A stretch of DNA of 64,000 nucleotides from a virus (IMGVR_UViG_3300037067_016086:25816-89815), one strand, 5' to 3'. Numbered from the stretch's first letter, positions 39,217 through 45,958 are shown. Made by a program: numbers and translations. The notes: a model not told the origin generated them from the letters alone.

Positions 39217-40046
39217 GCGTCCCTCCCCGTGATCGGCGGGAATTCCCGCGGCCACACATGCTGCGACATCACCTTGATCACGCTGTCCTTGACGAACAGC
39301 GGCACGCCATGGTCCGCACACCACTCCCTGATGCGATGGGCCGTGTGGATGGGATAGAGCGGACGCGTGCCAGCCCCCGTCTGGAAGCCCATCACCACCC
39401 AGTCCAATCCCGCCAGGCAGGCCGGGTCGAACGCCGGGTCCAGCAGCGGCTCCACGCTCGCCCAGAGCTTCCCAGGCCGGGTCCCCCACCGCAGCATCGC
39501 GTCATCGCGCACGCGGGCCAGCAGCGCCCCAGCGCGCCAGCTCGACGCGTTGTCCGTCAAGCTCACGCCGAGGTGCATGCTCTGCGGCCACATGATCCCG
39601 GCCGCCAGCAGGTCCGGACGCTTCGTCAGCGCCAGCACCGTGTGCCCCCGATCCGCGATCTCGGCCGCGAAGTGCGCCGTCTGCGCCTGCACCTGATCGG
39701 ACAAGATCCGGGCTCCGCCGGACCAGTCGAGGGCCAACGCCTCTCCCTCGAAGCACATGTCGCCCATGCTTCCCACGAAGATCCGCTTCGGCTTCCGCGA
39801 CCACGTGAAGCGCATCATCTCGCGCTCGTACACGCTGGCGTGGAAGGCAGGCGCAAAGGGATCGCCCCCGCTGGTTGGGATGTGCGGGTTGCCGCCCGTC
39901 AGCGCCGCCACCACGTTGTACGCCGTTCCATCCACGTGGCCGAGCCGCCACGCCATGCGCCGGGCATAGCAAAACTCGCACCCCTGACGGCATCCCGTGA
40001 AGAAGTTGATCGTCTCATCACACCAGTCGATGCGGGTCCGCGCCAT
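39213..40046 (-). CDS. DUF5131 (Gp37/Gp68-like) radical-SAM-related protein
   Basis: T.IDWCD.T.N..TGC..GC..CYA, IFVGSMGD, LTKRP, SVEPL, LFVK. Confidence 0.85.
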   Translation of the reverse strand: MARTRIDWCDETINFFTGCRQGCEFCYARRMAWRLGHVDGTAYNVVAALTGGNPHIPTSGGDPFAPAFHASVYEREMMRFTWSRKPKRIFVGSMGDMCFEGEALALDWSGGARILSDQVQAQTAHFAAEIADRGHTVLALTKRPDLLAAGIMWPQSMHLGVSLTDNASSWRAGALLARVRDDAMLRWGTRPGKLWASVEPLLDPAFDPACLAGLDWVVMGFQTGAGTRPLYPIHTAHRIREWCADHGVPLFVKDSVIKVMSQHVWPREFPPITGRDA

Positions 40047-40050
40047 CCTG

Positions 40051-40266
40051 TCACCCGTTCAGCGGCGCATCCGTCTTCAGGATGCACTTCCCGTTCTTCG
40101 GATCGCGGCCGCGGATCTCGCACTCCAGCAGCCACAGCATCTTCGTGTACTTCGCCGTCTCGCCCGTGTTGCTCCAGCAGCACATCAGCGCGATGAACGG
40201 CATGATCGCGATCAGCACGCCCACCAGGAAAACGATGATCCCGAATCCCAAACCGATGCCTTCCAT
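40051..40266 (-). CDS. small membrane protein
   Basis: long hydrophobic helix. Confidence 0.6.
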   Translation of the reverse strand: MEGIGLGFGIIVFLVGVLIAIMPFIALMCCWSNTGETAKYTKMLWLLECEIRGRDPKNGKCILKTDAPLNG

Positions 40267-40296
40267 AACCCACTCCCTCTCGCGCTATGCGCGTGT

Positions 40297-40863
40297 TTAC
40301 AGCCGAGCTGCCAGCCACTTGATCGCGACCTGCGACTCCGGCGTGACGATGCCGCCCTTGCGCACGATCGCGGCAGCCTTCGTCAGCCACTCTCCCGCGA
40401 ATGCCAGGTCGTCTTCGGTCAGGTTGTACGATCCCAGCTTCTTGACGATCGACGACGGCGTCGGGCACTTCCCGGTGAACCAGTACACCATCTCCATGGA
40501 CGCCCGGTAGCACTCGCACTCCGACAGCGTGCGCTTCGAGCTGTCCAGGCAGTAGTCCCACGCGAAGTCCGCGCTGTGGAACTGCCGCACGTGGGCGTGC
40601 TCGTGCACACACACGATCGCCTGCGAGGCCAGCGGCACCCAGGACGGATCGCCCACCGAGAAGTTCGGGTAGATGCCGTGCCCCAGCGTGATCGTGAAGT
40701 CGCGCAGGAACTTCTTCCGGTCCATGATGCCCATGGCCGCCAGAACGACGCCGATGATCTGCATCTCGGGCGCCGTCTTGTCCTTCACGGTGGTCCCGTA
40801 CTTCCGGCACATGTACCGCCAGAATGCGTTCGTCTGATCGCCAGTGATCGTGTGCGTCGTCAT
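40297..40863 (-). CDS. putative zinc metallopeptidase
   Basis: VHEHAHV.Q (HExxH) and downstream E.E.Y. Confidence 0.6.
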   Translation of the reverse strand: MTTHTITGDQTNAFWRYMCRKYGTTVKDKTAPEMQIIGVVLAAMGIMDRKKFLRDFTITLGHGIYPNFSVGDPSWVPLASQAIVCVHEHAHVRQFHSADFAWDYCLDSSKRTLSECECYRASMEMVYWFTGKCPTPSSIVKKLGSYNLTEDDLAFAGEWLTKAAAIVRKGGIVTPESQVAIKWLAARL

Positions 40864-41255
40864 CTCGTTCCTCCCTGGTACTCCGCCCCCTTGGGGTAGC
40901 TCTTTCGGCAGGCCAGGCGTCCCCGCTGCACCTCGTCCTGCGCCCGGCTGACCGAAGCCTCCGCCTTCGCCTCGAACGGCTCGCCCTCCACCACGTCGAG
41001 CCACTCGAACGCCCAGAACCCGCCGCAGGCCTCCGCCAGCTTCGCGTCGCAGGCTCCCATGCTCTGCACCTGAAGATCCAGAGCGGATTGAAGCAACTGC
41101 GCCTCGACCCGCGCCTCATCCCGATCGACCTCCGCGTTCAGCCACATCACCGTCGTCGCGATGAACCCGACGAGCATGACGATCACGGACACCGCCGTCA
41201 TGATCCGCTGCGTCCAGGTTAACCGGCGCTGCTCTTTGGCGTGATCGTACATCAT
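40860..41255 (-). CDS. membrane-anchored coiled-coil protein
   Basis: TM helix then coiled coil; ATGA-coupled to the ligase remnant. Confidence 0.6.
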   Translation of the reverse strand: MMYDHAKEQRRLTWTQRIMTAVSVIVMLVGFIATTVMWLNAEVDRDEARVEAQLLQSALDLQVQSMGACDAKLAEACGGFWAFEWLDVVEGEPFEAKAEASVSRAQDEVQRGRLACRKSYPKGAEYQGGTR

Positions 41256-41398
41256 ACGCTCTCCGTGTTCTTGGCGCAGTTGGCCTGCTTTCCCTTCTTC
41301 TTGCGCTCCAGGTAGTCCACGCTGACCAGCTTGAGGATCACCCGCCCGCACTCCGGATCGCGCCGCGGCGTCAGCGGCTTCACGACGCAGCCCTCGCG
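41252..41398 (-). pseudogene. displaced original C-terminus of the RNA ligase
   Basis: REGCVVKPLTPRRDPECGRVILKLVSVDYL... 28/30 identical to the active end at 43922-44023. Confidence 0.95.
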
Positions 41399-41400
41399 TT

Positions 41401-41964
41401 TCAAGATTTCCTCTTGTGGTCTGCAACCAGCGTACACCATTCCACAAACTCCTCTTCCGTGTAGTCCTGCTTCATGTTGTTCACGATCTTGTGGACCCAC
41501 TGCACATTCGACAGGACATAGGGCAAATTGCTATCCTTGCGATCCAGGGATGCCGTCTGCATTGCTTTTCTATCCCGATACGCACGCACGAATCTCAACG
41601 GAATCCCAGTCAGCGCACACTTCCTGTCTTGTTGCAAAAACAGGTTCCACGCCTCTTCCATCGTGAGATCGAAAACGAGATCCCGCACCACAGCATTGTA
41701 CCGAAGTCCGTACCAATAAGAACCACTGATCTCGCCGAATCCAGAAAATTGCTTATTGGGTAGACGCTTACGACATCCACACGACTGCGTCTGCCCAAAT
41801 CGCAAACTTGCCCCTCTCACCTCTGTAAGGTTCCCACACTCGCACAGACATTTCCAGACGCACTGTTTGCCCTTCCGATCCGGACACAACTCCAAAACGG
41901 TCAGGGACCCGAACACCTGCCCCTTCAGGTCTATGCGATTGTGTGCTGGATGTCGGCACTTCAT
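41401..41964 (-). CDS. HNH-like homing endonuclease
   Basis: FG.LTV..W.C.CECG..SCGC; CALTG; SLDRKDSN.PY...NVQWVHK.VN.MK; AT-rich. Confidence 0.85.
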   Translation of the reverse strand: MKCRHPAHNRIDLKGQVFGSLTVLELCPDRKGKQCVWKCLCECGNLTEVRGASLRFGQTQSCGCRKRLPNKQFSGFGEISGSYWYGLRYNAVVRDLVFDLTMEEAWNLFLQQDRKCALTGIPLRFVRAYRDRKAMQTASLDRKDSNLPYVLSNVQWVHKIVNNMKQDYTEEEFVEWCTLVADHKRKS

Positions 41965-41978
41965 GGGAACGACACTTC

Positions 41979-42353
41979 CTACTTGGACAACTTGATCTTC
42001 GGCGATTTCCTATTCTTGATGAACGTCTTGACTATGGGACGCTCCCGCTGCTGCGCATCCAACTGCGCCTCCCCGACATCCGCGATCTGCTGCGCCAGGA
42101 CCAGCGCCCCGCAGGTCGACAACTCCAACCGGTGCATCACTTCGTTCGCGTCCTCGTACGACAGATGGACCGTGTTGACCCCCGCCGCCTCGACGAACAT
42201 CTTTCCTTCGACCGGCTCGCATATCAGGATGCCCACGGCCCGGCGCTCGGAGATCGCCTCCCCCAGCTTCTTCATCACCTCGTCCAACTCCGCCTTCGCC
42301 TCCGGATGCACCCGGACCGCCTTCTTCCCCGTAGCCATCATCAACCTCCTCAT
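41979..42353 (-). CDS. hypothetical cargo protein
   Basis: ORF inside the ligase cassette. Confidence 0.6.
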   Translation of the reverse strand: MRRLMMATGKKAVRVHPEAKAELDEVMKKLGEAISERRAVGILICEPVEGKMFVEAAGVNTVHLSYEDANEVMHRLELSTCGALVLAQQIADVGEAQLDAQQRERPIVKTFIKNRKSPKIKLSK

Positions 42354-43708
42354 GTTCTCAGAAGCGCCACGGCATCCTCCGATGACGCCTCGTACCCTGC
42401 CTTGTACCCCGCCGCGTACCCCGCATCGGCCGCGGCATCCTCCTTGGCGTCACCGCTGGCCGTGTCGAGGGTCCACAGCCTCGCCCGATTCCGCGTCTCC
42501 AGCGCGAACTCCTGCGACTGAATCCGCTGGCGCAGGTGCGCCTTCACCGCCTCGTCGCGCTTGACTTGGACCTTCGCATCGTCGAGCTGCATCGCGTATT
42601 CTCCGGCCCGACGTTCCAAACCATCGGAGCGCCCACGTTCATCAAACAAAAGTCTCTCATGTATCCCTACAAGCTCCCGCGCCACTGCGAGTTCAACTTC
42701 GAGTCGCTTGTTCTCTGCTACAAGTCTTGACCGATCAGCATTTGCCTTCGTCGTCGCTTCTGCGGCTTCGGCTACGCTAATCGAGAACAGCGGCTGTCCG
42801 ACATTAGCTATCTCGTCGCGTATCGCTGCTCGCCATGACTCCTTCGAGACGTCATCGAGAACGTCCCAGTGCATCCTCGGATCGGACGCGGCCACGAACA
42901 GCGCGGATGCCGCCTGTTCCACTCGTTTCGCGTAGTCGGCAAGCTGTTCCTGAATCACCGCGTCCGTGTGCTCCCCCAACCGTTCCGCCGCTGCGGCCAT
43001 GGCCTCTGGTTTGTCGAGTCCGTAGAACGCCAGGGCAGTAGCCTGGTCGGCATCGTCGTTCGGCTCGTTGCACTCGCATACGGCATGGTTATGACCGTTC
43101 TCATGTCCTACCGGAAGAGTACATCTGTCGCCATGTGGGCAGGTGGATTTGCAACGTCCACTGAATGGGTCTTCCCAACCACGTCGAATAGCATAATTGG
43201 AAGGGTCAAATGATATATCTTGCGTGTCGCTCACGGGGAAAGAAAAACCGTGCCTCGCGACGGTTTCACATATCTCCCTTCTCGCTTCCGAAAGTCGCAT
43301 CGAGTATCCGTGGGATTTTCGCTCCATGACATCGAACCGTTCCTGCTCGTCCAGAATCCTCTTCTCGTAGATCTTTTCACGCTTCCGTGCCGCCGCGAGC
43401 CTGCTCGCTATGGCTGCCCGCTCTTTGCGCGCGCAAGGAAGGCACATCCTCTCGTCGTTGCCCGCATCGTAGGTCCTGGATTCCAGCCCGCAACGGCAGC
43501 AAGTTCCGATGGGCAGGAGCAGATCGAACACGCGCAGGCTGCTCTGGTCGGAATCGCACGCCGGGAATCGCCTCCGGTACTCCTCGACGGTCATGTCCAA
43601 CTTCGCCGCTCTGTTCTTCTCCGTGTTGCAATCGGGGCACAGGCCGGGGAATGCCTCCGGATCGTCGGCATCGAAATGATGGCTGCAAATTGTGCATTCG
43701 TCGCTCAT
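42350..43708 (-). CDS. 452-aa Cys-rich/coiled-coil cargo protein
   Basis: several CxxC pairs, C-x5-C-x-LP-x-GH motif, coiled coil; mosaic GC. Confidence 0.6.
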   Translation of the reverse strand: MSDECTICSHHFDADDPEAFPGLCPDCNTEKNRAAKLDMTVEEYRRRFPACDSDQSSLRVFDLLLPIGTCCRCGLESRTYDAGNDERMCLPCARKERAAIASRLAAARKREKIYEKRILDEQERFDVMERKSHGYSMRLSEARREICETVARHGFSFPVSDTQDISFDPSNYAIRRGWEDPFSGRCKSTCPHGDRCTLPVGHENGHNHAVCECNEPNDDADQATALAFYGLDKPEAMAAAAERLGEHTDAVIQEQLADYAKRVEQAASALFVAASDPRMHWDVLDDVSKESWRAAIRDEIANVGQPLFSISVAEAAEATTKANADRSRLVAENKRLEVELAVARELVGIHERLLFDERGRSDGLERRAGEYAMQLDDAKVQVKRDEAVKAHLRQRIQSQEFALETRNRARLWTLDTASGDAKEDAAADAGYAAGYKAGYEASSEDAVALLRT

Positions 43709-43878
43709 TGCGCACTCTCATCCTTCGACCTTGTCGCGATCTCGCTTTTCTTCTTCTTCCGGCGGTCCTTATCCCAGTACGGGGACTTGCAATGTGGGCA
43801 GATCCGCACCTCCTCCTGCTTCGGTATCCAGACATGCCCGCACCGCTTGCACTCCAACCTCGTGATCTCTACCTTCAT
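43705..43878 (-). CDS. small zinc-ribbon protein
   Basis: CKRCGHVW...CPHCKS.YW. Confidence 0.7.
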   Translation of the reverse strand: MKVEITRLECKRCGHVWIPKQEEVRICPHCKSPYWDKDRRKKKKSEIATRSKDESAQ

Positions 43879-43885
43879 ACCTGTA

Positions 43886-43914
43886 GGTATACCCTTGACG
43901 GTGTTACTCGTCAA
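43886..43914 (-). promoter_or_regulatory. cassette promoter (leaderless geometry) with inverted repeat
   Basis: TTGACG-N17-TATACC-N7-ATG; TTGACG-N8-CGTCAA. Confidence 0.7.
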
Positions 43915-43921
43915 GCGGAAA

Positions 43922-44893
43922 TTACCGCCTCTTCAGGTAGTCCACCGAAACCAATTTCAACTTGACTCGCCCACATTCCGGGTCCCTTCGAGGGGTGAGC
44001 GGGGAGACGACGCAGCCCTCACGGATGTTGTCCGCCCCCGGGATCGTGGAGTTGCCATCCGCCAGCATGGCCAGCTCGGGCGACCAGGCTCCGACGAACA
44101 GGAGCGGCGCCGTCGGCAGACCCAGGTCCGCGAAGATCGCGCGGGCCGTCACGGGAGGCAGCCACTCGCCGCCGTGCCGGATGTCGTAGAAGGCCAGCCG
44201 CAGCCCGAACTTGCTCCGGTCGATGCCGTAGTGGTAGCCCTTCACGGAGCCGTACAGCTCGCCGTAGAACACGTGGTCCGGGTAGCGCGCCAGCTTCTCC
44301 TCCAGTCCGAGATCGTCCGCGGCCCGCCACCAGGCCACTCGTGGGTCCCGGATCTTCCACCGCGTGTGCGACCCCGCGTGCAGCGCGCCGTCCACGAACA
44401 CGAACCGGGAGTTCTCCCCGTTGATCTTCTCGGAGATCTCCACCGGCTCGCCCGGCTTGATGATCTCGCTGAAGCGCCGCATCGACTCCACGTCGTAGTG
44501 CACCGCGTCGACCTTGGGCGCCGGAGCATCCAGGCCGTCGCCGCTCGGCGGCGGCTCCCAGTGCGTGCATCCCAGCTCCACCATCACGTCGTCGCCCTCT
44601 TTCCAGCCGGGACGCGCCTTGATGAGCAGTCCGAACGACTGCACGCCGCGCAGCCGCTTCGCCGAGATCCGCTTCATGCCGTCCTTGGCCTGGTCCGCCA
44701 GGAACGCGAACTCGGGCTGCGCCACCGGGACCATCGTATCGGGCTCGACGAACGCCGCGAGATCGCCGACGTGGAAGTCGCCGATGCGCGCGCACGAGGT
44801 GTAACCCCACACGTGAACCACTTCCAAAGAATCCGCGTCGGGATGTTTGTCGATCTGACCGATTCGAACCACCTTCACCGCGTGCTGGCTCAT
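43922..44893 (-). CDS. ATP-dependent RNA ligase (Rnl2/DRB0094-like, with N-terminal OB-like domain)
   Basis: HPDADSLE, EKINGEN (KxxG), YGE, FYD, REGCVV, K.K. Confidence 0.9.
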   Translation of the reverse strand: MSQHAVKVVRIGQIDKHPDADSLEVVHVWGYTSCARIGDFHVGDLAAFVEPDTMVPVAQPEFAFLADQAKDGMKRISAKRLRGVQSFGLLIKARPGWKEGDDVMVELGCTHWEPPPSGDGLDAPAPKVDAVHYDVESMRRFSEIIKPGEPVEISEKINGENSRFVFVDGALHAGSHTRWKIRDPRVAWWRAADDLGLEEKLARYPDHVFYGELYGSVKGYHYGIDRSKFGLRLAFYDIRHGGEWLPPVTARAIFADLGLPTAPLLFVGAWSPELAMLADGNSTIPGADNIREGCVVSPLTPRRDPECGRVKLKLVSVDYLKRR

Positions 44894-45153
44894 GGCTCCT
44901 CCTCCATATCGTTGTCCTCCGACTCGGGATCGCCCTCGGCCTCGGTGAGCAGCTTGGTGTCTCCGCCGGGAACGCGGGCCCGCCACACGTCCAGGACATG
45001 CTGCGCCGCGCGGTCCGCCAGCTTCCTGGCCGCCGCGAGCTGCCCACCGCCGGACACCACCGCACGGGCGTACGTCGCCACCCACGTGTCCGCCGCGAAC
45101 TCCTCGGGCGTCTGCAACGACGCCAGACGCTTCATGGCCGTATCCGACTTCAT
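44890..45153 (-). CDS. hypothetical protein
   Basis: GGAGG RBS. Confidence 0.6.
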   Translation of the reverse strand: MKSDTAMKRLASLQTPEEFAADTWVATYARAVVSGGGQLAAARKLADRAAQHVLDVWRARVPGGDTKLLTEAEGDPESEDNDMEEEP

Positions 45154-45401
45154 GGCGCACCTCCTTCCGTCCCGGAATCGGGCGGCGCGCACTCCGTGGT
45201 CAGCATGCAGTTGTAGCCGCCTGCCGGGTCCGCGCAGCACGCGAACGCCGCGCCCTCGATCTCGGAGCAGTCCGCGATCAGCTCCCACTCGCCGCCCGAG
45301 CTGCACATCTCGGCGCGATCCCCGCTGCACCGCGTCTCGTTCTGCGCGCACTCCTCGCAGGCGCCCAGCAGGAACGCCAACACCACCAGTACCTTGATCA
45401 T
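45150..45401 (-). CDS. Cys-rich lipoprotein
   Basis: lipobox LLGAC; C...ETRCSG....C...G.W....C. Confidence 0.7.
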   Translation of the reverse strand: MIKVLVVLAFLLGACEECAQNETRCSGDRAEMCSSGGEWELIADCSEIEGAAFACCADPAGGYNCMLTTECAPPDSGTEGGAP

Positions 45402-45958
45402 GGGTTCTCCTCTCCGTCCGGCCCCACGAGCAGCCTCAGCTCCTCGCGGCGCTCCGACTCGGTCATCTGATGCGGCGGCCCATCCGCCTCCTCGGCGAGA
45501 TTGTCCGCGGCGTCGCCGTCCAGGTACGACTGCTCGCACTCATCTAGCGACCCGGCGGGCAACTCCGGCCCCGGCTGCAACTGGCACGCGTCCCGCGCGC
45601 ACACCCCGAGCCGATCGGAGAGCTGGTTCATCACCTCGTGGTACGCCTGCGCATCGCTCGCCCACTCGCTGCACCGCGTCCCCCTGTACCAGGCCACACC
45701 GAATGCGTGCGCCTGCTCGGTGGGAGACAGCCACCCACCCTCGATCCGCGACCCCTTGTGGCACACCAGAGCCCGCGCGTACTCCTGGCACTTCGACACC
45801 TCGCGCTCTGACAGCGTCGAGTTGTCCATGCAGTCCTTCCAGATGCGGTGATACGCATCCTCGCGCTCCAGGCATTCGGGCGGCAGCTGGTTCTCGGACT
45901 CGTCGTCACCGCAGCCCACGAGCATCAGCGCCACCAGGATCATCATCCCAACCCTCAT
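45398..45958 (-). CDS. lipoprotein
   Basis: lipobox LVGC followed by GDD; GGAGG RBS. Confidence 0.75.
   Translation of the reverse strand: MRVGMMILVALMLVGCGDDESENQLPPECLEREDAYHRIWKDCMDNSTLSEREVSKCQEYARALVCHKGSRIEGGWLSPTEQAHAFGVAWYRGTRCSEWASDAQAYHEVMNQLSDRLGVCARDACQLQPGPELPAGSLDECEQSYLDGDAADNLAEEADGPPHQMTESERREELRLLVGPDGEENP

What the first reader, a model, noticed from the sequence alone, without database searches (positions are those of the whole stretch)
41252..44023. 2.6-kb cargo-carrying cassette inserted at RNA ligase motif REGxV
Seen: the ligase C-terminus is present twice, 28/30 aa identical, but 17 of the 28 identical residues use different codons. Between the copies lie a promoter with inverted repeat, a 57-aa zinc-ribbon gene, a 452-aa Cys-rich/coiled-coil gene, a 124-aa gene and an HNH-like gene whose stop lies 2 nt from the stranded copy. 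Inference: terminal-swap homing can mobilise passenger genes, making it a transposase-free, integrase-free gene delivery unit.
Basis: partly seen in the sequence, partly recalled or inferred. Interest (0 to 1): 0.8.

Follow-up and report, generated by a model that had tools for sequence, protein, structure and literature searches.

The report
Endonuclease cassette replacing RNA-ligase gene end
A 2.6-kb block of foreign DNA sits in the end of a phage RNA-ligase gene: it brings a substitute gene end, three passenger genes and a DNA-cutting enzyme, and leaves the original end stranded downstream. The layout is known from fungal mitochondria, and here I could not show that the block still moves.

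Summary
A 2,625-nt insert (window 44023-41399, minus strand) lies in the RNA-ligase gene at the REGCVV motif.

- **Duplicated end:** the two ligase ends are 28/30 residues identical, with 17 of the 28 in different codons (64/90 nt).
- **Which copy is native:** the downstream copy matches relatives at 87/90 nt, has host-like GC3 (0.94), and its stop overlaps the next gene's start. The in-frame copy has lower GC3 (0.77) and no close DNA relative.
- **Empty sites:** six related phage contigs carry the uninterrupted ligase. Filled and empty phages co-occur in two samples.
- **The nuclease:** the last cassette gene folds as an HNH nuclease (PacI, Z 8.3).

Best reading: a homing-endonuclease "gene hybrid" cassette like the mobile endonuclease ORFs of fungal mitochondria. 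Three passenger ORFs lie between the substitute end and the nuclease, in one tightly packed operon.

The passenger-delivery inference is only partly supported.
- Among 143 ligase loci this is the only duplicated end, and no second backbone or alternative cargo was found.
- The four genes differ strongly in GC3 (0.63-0.90).
- A deletion variant of the 452-aa passenger lies on a relative's contig whose ligase site is empty.

This scan has noted similar terminus-replacing cassettes in other phages and archaea. I rate it a new variant of a known kind, of moderate interest.

The parts
43922..44893 (-). RNA ligase gene as now read (323 aa plus stop). The body 44893-44024 is native. The last 33 codons are cassette-borne.
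   Evidence: Pfam PF21189 OB domain plus PF09414 RNA_ligase. NCBIfam TIGR02306 scores 103.6 bits, below its 151-bit cut-off. The body is 83-89% nt identical to relatives L004, L006, L158 and L159. Body GC3 is 0.91.
43925..44023 (-). Copy A: the substitute ligase C-terminus (REGCVVSPL...DYLKRR) carried by the cassette, in frame with the native body.
   Evidence: GC3 is 0.77 against 0.91 for the body. It is only 64/90 nt identical to any native-type end, and no closer DNA relative exists among 132 ligase ends. It keeps all family-invariant residues: R284, E285, G286, V288, G301, R302, L305, K306, Y312.
41399..44023 (-). The whole insert, 2,625 nt. Its boundaries are ambiguous within the 14-17 nt shared at both junctions.
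   Evidence: Direct-repeat spacing is 2,625 nt. The block is absent from L004, L006, L007, L008, L158 and L159, which align continuously across the site.
44007..44020 (-). Left copy of the 14-nt identical junction word GAGGGCTGCGTCGT (codons E-G-C-V-V of the REGCVV motif).
   Evidence: Alignments.
41382..41395 (-). Right copy of the same 14-nt junction word. Native sequence resumes here.
   Evidence: Alignments.
43886..43915 (-). Promoter-like element TTGACG-17-TATACC with the ATG 7 nt downstream and no Shine-Dalgarno. A 7-bp inverted repeat CTTGACG/CGTCAAG overlaps the -35 box and spacer.
   Evidence: Read from the sequence. Five other cassette genes of the window share the same geometry. The stricter consensus scan does not find it. 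Function is not tested.
43705..43878 (-). 57-aa zinc-ribbon ORF with a basic tail, the first gene of the cassette operon. Its stop overlaps the next start (ATGA).
   Evidence: ORF list. Only weak, sub-threshold zinc-ribbon Pfam and NCBIfam hits. GC3 is 0.81.
42350..43708 (-). 452-aa passenger ORF: two N-terminal Cys4 knuckles, a CPHGDRC...GHNH...CNEPN mini-domain (about residues 180-220) and long coiled coils. It is a mosaic of modules that also occur as separate small proteins.
   Evidence: No Pfam, PHROG, NCBIfam or PADLOC family. 43 partial homologues, each matching only a different segment of the protein. AlphaFold model pLDDT 72, pTM 0.33, mostly long helices. GC3 is 0.67.
41979..42353 (-). 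124-aa passenger ORF, or about 120 aa if it starts at the ATG after GGAGG. It is an orphan.
   Evidence: It finds only itself among 5.8 billion clusters. GC3 of 0.90 resembles resident genes.
41401..41964 (-). 187-aa HNH-fold nuclease gene, the last gene of the cassette. It has an N-terminal Cys-rich small beta-barrel and a C-terminal beta-beta-alpha-metal domain.
   Evidence: PHROG 374 HNH endonuclease, E 1.7e-20. 470 homologues, none with a Pfam family. Model pLDDT 91.6. Best structural match is PacI, Z 8.3, rmsd 3.7 A, 102 residues aligned, followed by Cas9 HNH domains, Gme HNH, McrA and T4 endonuclease VII. GC3 of 0.63 is the lowest in the region.
41252..41398 (-). Copy B: the native ligase C-terminus, stranded (REGCVVKPL...DYLERKKKGKQANCAKNTESV, then stop).
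   Evidence: 87/90 nt and 30/30 aa identical to L004, L006 and L158. GC3 is 0.94. Its stop overlaps the ATG of the next gene, as at the empty site of L004. A TTG at 41404-41402 overlaps the HNH stop and opens a 50-aa frame through it, which one gene caller called in L155.
40860..41255 (-). Downstream resident gene (131 aa). Its start overlaps the stop of the stranded end.
   Evidence: Homologues sit at the same place in L006, L008 and L158. GC3 is 0.87.

Best explanation
This is a homing-endonuclease cassette of the gene-hybrid (terminus-replacing) type, sitting in the 3' end of a phage RNA-ligase gene.

**Shown.**
- Relatives have an uninterrupted ligase.
- This phage has 2,625 extra nucleotides, starting at the conserved REGCVV-coding sequence.
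- The extra DNA begins with a foreign but protein-conserving copy of the last 33 ligase codons, so the ligase stays whole.
- It ends 2 nt after the stop of an HNH-fold nuclease gene, after which the native ligase end resumes, unread by the ligase frame.

**Inferred origin.** In a donor phage of the same broad ligase clade, the nuclease gene lay downstream of the ligase gene and cut ligase genes that lacked it, near the REGCVV codons. One side of the break was repaired by homology within the ligase gene, copying the donor's gene end, whatever followed it, and the nuclease gene. That kept the recipient's own gene end from the break onward.

**Inferred consequences.**
- Insertion splits the presumed recognition sequence, so both junctions would be immune to cutting.
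- Among close relatives the block could then be copied by ordinary two-sided double-strand-break repair, with the ligase body and the stranded end plus downstream genes as homology arms.
- Anything lying between the arms is copied too, which includes the three passenger ORFs.

**Unresolved.** Whether the passengers came with the donor segment or were added later. The uneven base composition favours a composite history.
For: 1. **Empty sites.** L004/L005, L006, L007, L008, L158 and L159 align continuously across the site, and about 90 nt of each aligns to both copies.
2. **Polarity.** Copy B is 87/90 nt identical to relatives with GC3 0.94, and it keeps the ATGA overlap with the next gene. Copy A is 64/90 nt identical with GC3 0.77 and lacks the lysine-rich tail that all close relatives have.
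3. **Selection on copy A.** 28/30 residues are kept despite 26 nt changes, and none of 200,000 random trials reached more than 22. All family-invariant residues are kept.
4. **The nuclease.** PHROG HNH families match. A confident model matches PacI at Z 8.3, followed by many HNH domains.
5. **Recurrent association with ligase genes.** Family members directly abut ligase genes in unrelated phages without any duplication: L104 downstream, L054/L057 upstream.
6. **Same pattern elsewhere in this phage.** Against L158, six further nuclease-linked insertions of 0.54-1.4 kb occur in the window, several with overlapping duplicated host sequence.
7. **One packed unit.** The four cassette genes have ATGA overlaps and a 14-nt gap, behind a promoter-like element whose geometry matches that in front of the nuclease genes of the other cassettes.
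8. **No splicing element.** No ribozyme was found.
9. **Published parallel.** The same architecture is described for fungal mitochondrial mORFs. There the inserted C-terminus is 64-81% nt identical to the relative's, while the native one is 91-98% identical (PMC3630166).
Against: - No cleavage or mobility data exist.
- The family lacks an obvious first catalytic histidine. Its invariant motif is S-L-D-R ... Y ... N ... W, with a near-invariant H-K, so nuclease activity is inferred from fold only.
- Only one cassette-bearing lineage was found. Every run or contig that holds cassette sequence at 99% or more also holds the same backbone.
- Relatives with a nearly identical site differ at one synonymous base of the 14-nt junction word (L158 and L006 have GGG where the window has GGC). 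They co-occur with the cassette phage in sample ERZ27247363, and a comparable empty-site relative co-occurs in run X3, yet they are uninvaded.
- GC3 of 0.81/0.67/0.90/0.63 across the four genes argues against a single homogeneous donor segment.
- The donor of copy A was not found.
Confidence: 0.65

Rival explanations
1. The cassette is composite. A minimal swap cassette (substitute end plus HNH, like the 0.5-0.8-kb cassettes elsewhere in this phage) came first, and the three ORFs were inserted later between the substitute stop codon and the nuclease gene. They are then ordinary accessory genes that landed in a tolerant spot, not cargo that the element delivers. This rival concerns only the history of the passengers and is compatible with the nuclease-driven origin.
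For: - GC3 differs strongly between the genes. The 124-aa ORF at 0.90 looks resident-like, while the 452-aa ORF (0.67) and the HNH gene (0.63) look foreign.
- All other terminus-replacing cassettes in the window are 0.54-0.78 kb and carry only the nuclease.
- A 216-aa deletion variant of the 452-aa protein (86-89% identical) lies on the same 22.8-kb contig as an uninterrupted ligase.
- In run X3 a minor contig of that variant has a different downstream neighbour.
- The 452-aa protein is itself a patchwork of modules.
Against: - No intermediate form (HNH plus substitute end without passengers) was found at this site in 143 ligase loci.
- The four genes are packed with overlapping stops and starts behind one promoter-like element. 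That is easier to explain if they were selected as a unit.
- No flanking repeats or second nuclease mark a nested insertion.
Confidence: 0.4
2. The block is a recombination scar with no nuclease involvement. It entered by homology-facilitated illegitimate recombination, anchored in the conserved ligase motif, as in C-terminal displacement at Rhs and CdiA toxin loci. The HNH gene is then just another passenger.
For: - The junctions share only 14-17 nt, and one side must have been joined without homology.
- No activity data exist for the HNH protein.
- Its catalytic motif is non-canonical.
Against: - A nuclease gene sits at the edge of this insertion and of six other insertions in the same phage.
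- Homologous HNH genes abut ligase genes in three other phage lineages.
- The insertion point is a catalytic-motif-coding sequence, the typical choice of homing endonucleases. That generalisation is from my own knowledge.
Confidence: 0.1
3. The two gene ends are kept for a programmed purpose. For example, deletion between the 14-nt repeats could restore the native ligase. Alternatively the stranded end could be translated as a 50-aa peptide, to keep the downstream gene translationally coupled.
For: - Copy B is intact over all 48 codons, and its stop still overlaps the next gene's ATG.
- A TTG overlapping the HNH stop opens its frame, and a gene caller predicted that 50-aa ORF in L155.
Against: - Intactness is equally expected after a recent insertion.
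- This 90-nt stretch is highly conserved among all relatives in any case: 87/90 nt to L004, L006 and L158.
- I found no evidence of expression or of excision products. The only skipping contig in run X3 belongs to a diverged relative.
Confidence: 0.05

Closest known systems
Mobile endonuclease ORFs (mORFs) that create gene hybrids in fungal mitochondria: Allomyces macrogynus atp6; Glomus atp6, atp9, cox2, nad3 (PMC3630166, which cites Paquin et al. 1994)
   Same: The order of parts is the same: native gene body, inserted foreign C-terminus in frame, endonuclease ORF, then the native C-terminus stranded downstream. The inserted end is far more diverged at the DNA level than at the protein level. 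The native end is nearly identical to close relatives. The close relative shows the empty site (compared).
   Different: The host is a bacteriophage and not a mitochondrion. The nuclease is HNH and not LAGLIDADG or GIY-YIG. Three additional ORFs (about 1.9 kb) lie between the inserted end and the nuclease. The block has its own promoter-like element.
Intronless homing by free-standing phage endonucleases (T4 SegA-G, MobA-E; PMC2988022)
   Same: A free-standing nuclease gene lies next to its target gene. The cut site is at a distance from the insertion site. Spread is by double-strand-break repair with co-conversion of flanking DNA. HNH enzymes are among them.
   Different: In the T4 cases the flanks are homologous on both sides, so donor sequence replaces recipient sequence and no duplicated gene end is left. 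The review does not contain the word 'duplicat' at all. The mobA and mobE insertions split genes instead of supplying a spare end.
HEG-islands (Barth et al. 2023, PMC10448857)
   Same: The idea is the same: genes lying next to homing endonuclease genes are carried along as cargo by recombinational repair.
   Different: HEG-islands are bracketed by two or more nuclease genes, carry essential core genes, have no discrete boundaries, and are recognised by over 90% nt identity between otherwise distant phages. Here there is one nuclease, orphan accessory ORFs, sharp boundaries and no second host backbone.
C-terminal displacement at Rhs, CdiA and T6SS effector loci
   Same: A new C-terminal coding piece plus accompanying genes displaces the old C-terminal piece, which remains downstream as an orphan.
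   Different: Those loci exchange toxin tips and immunity genes, and no site-specific nuclease is implicated. Here the protein sequence of the replaced end is conserved, not diversified.

Membership tests
Free-standing HNH homing endonuclease | Beta-beta-alpha-metal (HNH) nuclease fold | tested here: met
   Model pLDDT 91.6. PacI Z 8.3, rmsd 3.7 A, 102 residues aligned. Further matches at Z 5-6.9 are mostly HNH domains: Cas9 HNH, Gme HNH, McrA, ZRANB3. The Foldseek top hits are all HNH, but with E of only 0.015 or weaker.
Free-standing HNH homing endonuclease | Canonical catalytic His...Asn...His/Asn residues | tested here: inconclusive
   The alignment of 31 family members has invariant S139, L140, D141, R142, Y149, N153 and W156, and near-invariant H158 and K159. 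No histidine stands at the usual first position. PacI, the best structural match, is itself an atypical HNH enzyme by its entry title.
Free-standing HNH homing endonuclease | Presence/absence polymorphism with a precise empty site in related genomes | tested here: met
   L004/L005, L006, L007, L008, L158 and L159. A skipping contig of a co-occurring relative in run X3.
Free-standing HNH homing endonuclease | Site-specific cleavage of the nuclease-less allele and over-representation in progeny of mixed infections | not testable with these tools
   The phage is uncultured and no biochemical data exist.
mORF-type gene hybrid (terminus replacement) | Foreign C-terminal coding piece fused in frame to the native gene body, keeping conserved residues | tested here: met
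mORF-type gene hybrid (terminus replacement) | Native C-terminal piece retained downstream of the endonuclease ORF and closer to relatives than the inserted piece | tested here: met
   87/90 nt against 64/90 nt identity to L004, L006 and L158.
mORF-type gene hybrid (terminus replacement) | LAGLIDADG or GIY-YIG endonuclease in an organellar genome, as the family was described | tested here: not met
   This is an HNH-fold protein in a viral contig. It works like a mORF hybrid but does not belong to that set.
HEG-island | Cargo bracketed by two or more nuclease genes, with over 90% nt identity between otherwise distant phages | tested here: not met
   There is a single nuclease gene at one edge. 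Cassette sequence was found only together with the same backbone.
Group I intron or intein carrying the nuclease | Self-splicing ribozyme, or an in-frame protein-splicing domain | tested here: not met
   No Rfam match at E up to 1 in 40800-45300. The ligase frame ends at a stop codon before the cassette genes.
DraRnl-type (TIGR02306) RNA ligase | N-terminal OB domain plus nucleotidyltransferase domain | tested here: met
   PF21189 (E 2.6e-12) and PF09414 (E 5.1e-17), both above their cut-offs. TIGR02306 scores 103.6 bits, below its 151-bit equivalog cut-off.

The most novel reading that the evidence does not exclude
The block is an active, self-contained vehicle. It would be a promoter-bearing HNH swap cassette that homes into the catalytic-motif codons of RNA-ligase genes and repairs its target with its own gene end. 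It would deliver a whole accessory operon (zinc-ribbon, coiled-coil and orphan proteins) from phage to phage as one unit. The passengers would either help the homing reaction or give the recipient phage an advantage that keeps the cassette in place.
Probability: 0.2. Interest if true: 0.65.

Novelty: new variant of a known kind. Interest (0 to 1): 0.45.

Why it matters
Terminus-replacing endonuclease cassettes are documented for fungal mitochondria. In three full-text searches I found no published description for bacteriophages.

This phage carries several such cassettes, and this is the only one in the window that has grown to hold extra genes. If the whole block is copied during homing, a homing endonuclease plus a spare gene end would be enough to move unrelated genes between phages without any integrase or transposase. 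That bears on how phage accessory genes spread and on why gene fragments persist next to nuclease genes.

The case also offers a clean test system. The presumed target is a known 20-30-nt conserved sequence, natural empty sites differ from it by one or two bases, and filled and empty phages co-occur in the same samples.

Tried and rejected
**Searches that found nothing**
- Megablast of 40800-45400 against 50,697 GenBank phage records: no match.
- Viral-contig scans with the single ligase, the 452-aa protein and the HNH protein: no relatives.
- Pfam, PHROGs, NCBIfam and PADLOC on the three passenger proteins: nothing above threshold.
- Pfam on ten partial homologues of the 452-aa protein: nothing informative.
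- ESM Atlas for the 452-aa protein: no hit at 0.9 or above and no model held.
- Rfam on the region: no match, so an intron reading was dropped.
- A second ligase locus with a duplicated end: none among 142 other loci.
- A DNA donor for copy A among 132 ligase ends: none closer than 64/90 nt.

**Results too weak to use**
- AlphaFold model of the 452-aa protein: pTM 0.33, mostly long helices. I did not fold-search it, because the matches would be meaningless.

**Cargo homologue that could not be placed**
- The contig holding both the uninterrupted ligase P0003 and the cargo variant P0241 could not be fetched. Exact-protein look-ups found no record, and record handles are not held.
- P0241 is not in the fetched flanks of L158, L159, L006 or L163. 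Its position in the relative stays unknown.
- The loose end next to the P0241-like contig in run X3 matches nothing I hold.

**Other**
- The nearest HNH relative with DNA (L160, 55% identical) is followed by an unrelated gene, not a ligase.
- No RNA holder is listed among the public runs.

Full report
**Setting.** The window is part of an 89.8-kb IMG/VR viral contig, estimated to be half of a genome. All genes discussed lie on the minus strand. The region encodes RNA-repair functions: a DraRnl-type RNA ligase here, with RtcB, a CCA-adding enzyme and a Thg1-like gene nearby in the syntenic relative L158.

**Observation.** The ligase ORF (44893-43922) ends with REGCVVSPL...DYLKRR. A second copy, REGCVVKPL...DYLERKKKGKQANCAKNTESV, lies at 41398-41255.
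- Random placement of 26 substitutions never preserved more than 22 residues in 200,000 trials.
- The start-to-start spacing of the two copies is 2,625 nt.
- Between them lie four ORFs of 57, 452, 124 and 187 aa. The first three are linked by ATGA stop/start overlaps and the last follows after 14 nt.
- The last stop codon is 2 nt from the second copy.

**Which copy is native.**
- Relatives with 70-89% identical ligases all end like the downstream copy, including the lysine-rich tail.
- At the DNA level the downstream copy is 87/90 identical to L004, L006 and L158. The in-frame copy is only 64/90 identical.
- GC3 is 0.94 for the downstream copy, 0.91 for the ligase body and 0.77 for the in-frame copy.
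- The stop of the downstream copy overlaps the start codon of the next gene, as the ligase stop does at the empty site of L004.
- The in-frame copy is therefore foreign and the downstream copy is the stranded original.
- No sampled ligase is a close DNA relative of the foreign copy.
- The 30-residue peptide is conserved even in ligases only 60% identical overall. L009 shares 28/30 residues at 59/90 nt with GC3 of 0.3. The "recoding" is thus what a distant donor of the same clade would give and need not be deliberate.

**Empty sites.**
- L004/L005, L006, L007, L008, L158 and L159 align continuously through the site. About 90 nt of each aligns to both copies.
- The junctions share a 14-nt word, GAGGGCTGCGTCGT.
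- L161, a contig 100% identical to the window over 12.4 kb, and the empty-site relative L158 come from the same sample.
- In run X3 the cassette phage has depth of about 90, and a diverged relative at depth of about 10 skips the block.
- Among 143 ligase loci with a detectable C-terminal motif, only this phage has two copies.

**The nuclease.**
- The 187-aa protein matches PHROG HNH families. It has 470 homologues, none with a Pfam family.
- Its model (pLDDT 91.6) matches PacI at Z 8.3, followed by many HNH domains.
- The invariant motif S-L-D-R ... Y ... N ... W-x-H-K lacks an obvious first catalytic histidine, so activity is inferred.
- Homologues abut ligase genes in other phages without any duplication: directly downstream in L104 and directly upstream in L054/L057. 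This fits a family that repeatedly associates with this gene.

**Context in the same phage.** Against L158, the window has six further nuclease-linked insertions:
- 627 and 775 nt at the two ends of rtcB;
- 542 nt at the DUF3268 gene;
- 1,433 nt (TnpB);
- 753 and 738 nt at two methyltransferase genes.

Several show overlapping duplicated host sequence. The ligase block is by far the largest. Six cassette genes share the geometry TTGAC-like box, 16-17 nt, -10-like box, 6-7 nt, ATG. In the others this element sits directly in front of the first cassette gene, the nuclease in most of them by earlier notes. Here it sits in front of the zinc-ribbon ORF, with the nuclease last in the row.

**The passengers.**
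- None has a family assignment.
- The 124-aa ORF is an orphan.
- The 452-aa protein is a patchwork. Separate small proteins match its residues 1-62, 59-116, 112-184, 173-220 (a Cys/His mini-domain that also occurs as a 60-aa stand-alone protein) and 257-332. Its model is mostly long helices.
- GC3 differs sharply between the four genes, at 0.81, 0.67, 0.90 and 0.63.
- A 216-aa variant (P0241) keeps the N- and C-terminal parts at 86-89% identity. It is recorded on a 22,797-bp contig, the same length and source as the contig of the uninterrupted ligase P0003.
- A matching deletion-variant contig with a different downstream neighbour is present at low depth in X3.
- This passenger family therefore also exists in a relative whose ligase site is empty. 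I could not fetch that contig to see where.

**Mechanism.** The simplest account is one-sided homologous repair after a nuclease cut near the REGCVV codons.
- The broken recipient copies from a donor in which the nuclease gene lay downstream of the ligase gene.
- Copying runs through the donor's gene end and the nuclease gene.
- The far side, lacking homology, is joined illegitimately, so the recipient's own end survives from the break onward.
- After that, the ligase body and the stranded end with its downstream genes can act as two homology arms. Whatever lies between them is copied.
- The steps from "cuts near REGCVV" onward are inferred.
- That relatives with an almost identical site co-occur uninvaded counts mildly against current activity. 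Divergence of about 16%, different hosts or the single base change could also explain it.

**Comparison with what is known.**
- The architecture equals that of fungal mitochondrial mORF gene hybrids (PMC3630166).
- Cargo carried by homing is known from co-conversion in T4 (PMC2988022) and from HEG-islands (PMC10448857).
- I found no phage paper describing a duplicated, replaced gene end.
- Earlier notes of this scan report similar cassettes in other phages and archaea, two of them with a passenger gene.

**Verdict.** This is a phage HNH version of a known architecture, unusual for carrying a three-gene operon. Mobility of the whole block is not shown.

Noticed in passing
window 41404-41252 (minus strand): A TTG overlapping the HNH stop codon opens a 50-aa frame (MK plus the stranded ligase end), and its stop overlaps the ATG of the next gene. 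A gene caller predicted this ORF in the identical contig L155. It might keep the downstream 131-aa gene translationally coupled.
   Followed up: partly
window 28771, 32953, 34243, 37820, 43878 (minus strand) and 46460 (plus strand): Six cassette genes share the geometry TTGAC-like box, 16-17 nt, -10-like box, 6-7 nt, ATG, with no Shine-Dalgarno. That suggests leaderless transcripts. Only at 43878 is the first gene not a nuclease or cassette core gene.
   Followed up: partly
window 31762-56118 compared with L158: Against the relative L158 the window has seven insertions: rtcB N-end 627 nt, rtcB C-end 775 nt, DUF3268 gene 542 nt, ligase 2,532 nt plus 93 nt of overlap, TnpB 1,433 nt, and two methyltransferase genes 753 and 738 nt. 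Otherwise the two are syntenic at 74-97% identity.
   Followed up: partly
window 43168-43049 (residues about 180-220 of the 452-aa ORF): A Cys/His mini-domain (C-x-S-T-C-P-H-G-D-R-C ... G-H-x-x-G-H-N-H ... C-x-C-N-E-P-N) recurs in about 35 metagenomic proteins. It occurs as a 60-aa stand-alone protein and is also appended to unrelated proteins. It has no Pfam family.
   Followed up: partly
window 40860-41255: The 131-aa gene after the ligase is present in L006, L008 and L158 (55% identical) but absent in L004 and L159. There the ligase stop overlaps the start of the next gene instead.
   Followed up: no
window 41401-41964 and homologues P0122-P0240: The nuclease belongs to a family of at least 470 metagenomic proteins with an invariant S-L-D-R...Y...N...W motif and an N-terminal C-x-C-x-C...C-G-C module. 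None carries a Pfam family. The N-terminal module models as a small SH3/Tudor/KOW-like barrel.
   Followed up: partly
run X3, laid on window 39500-45500: At least three ligase variants co-occur in one groundwater sample. The major one is the cassette phage, one relative has the empty site, and a third has a different sequence just before the G-R-V-I codons.
   Followed up: no
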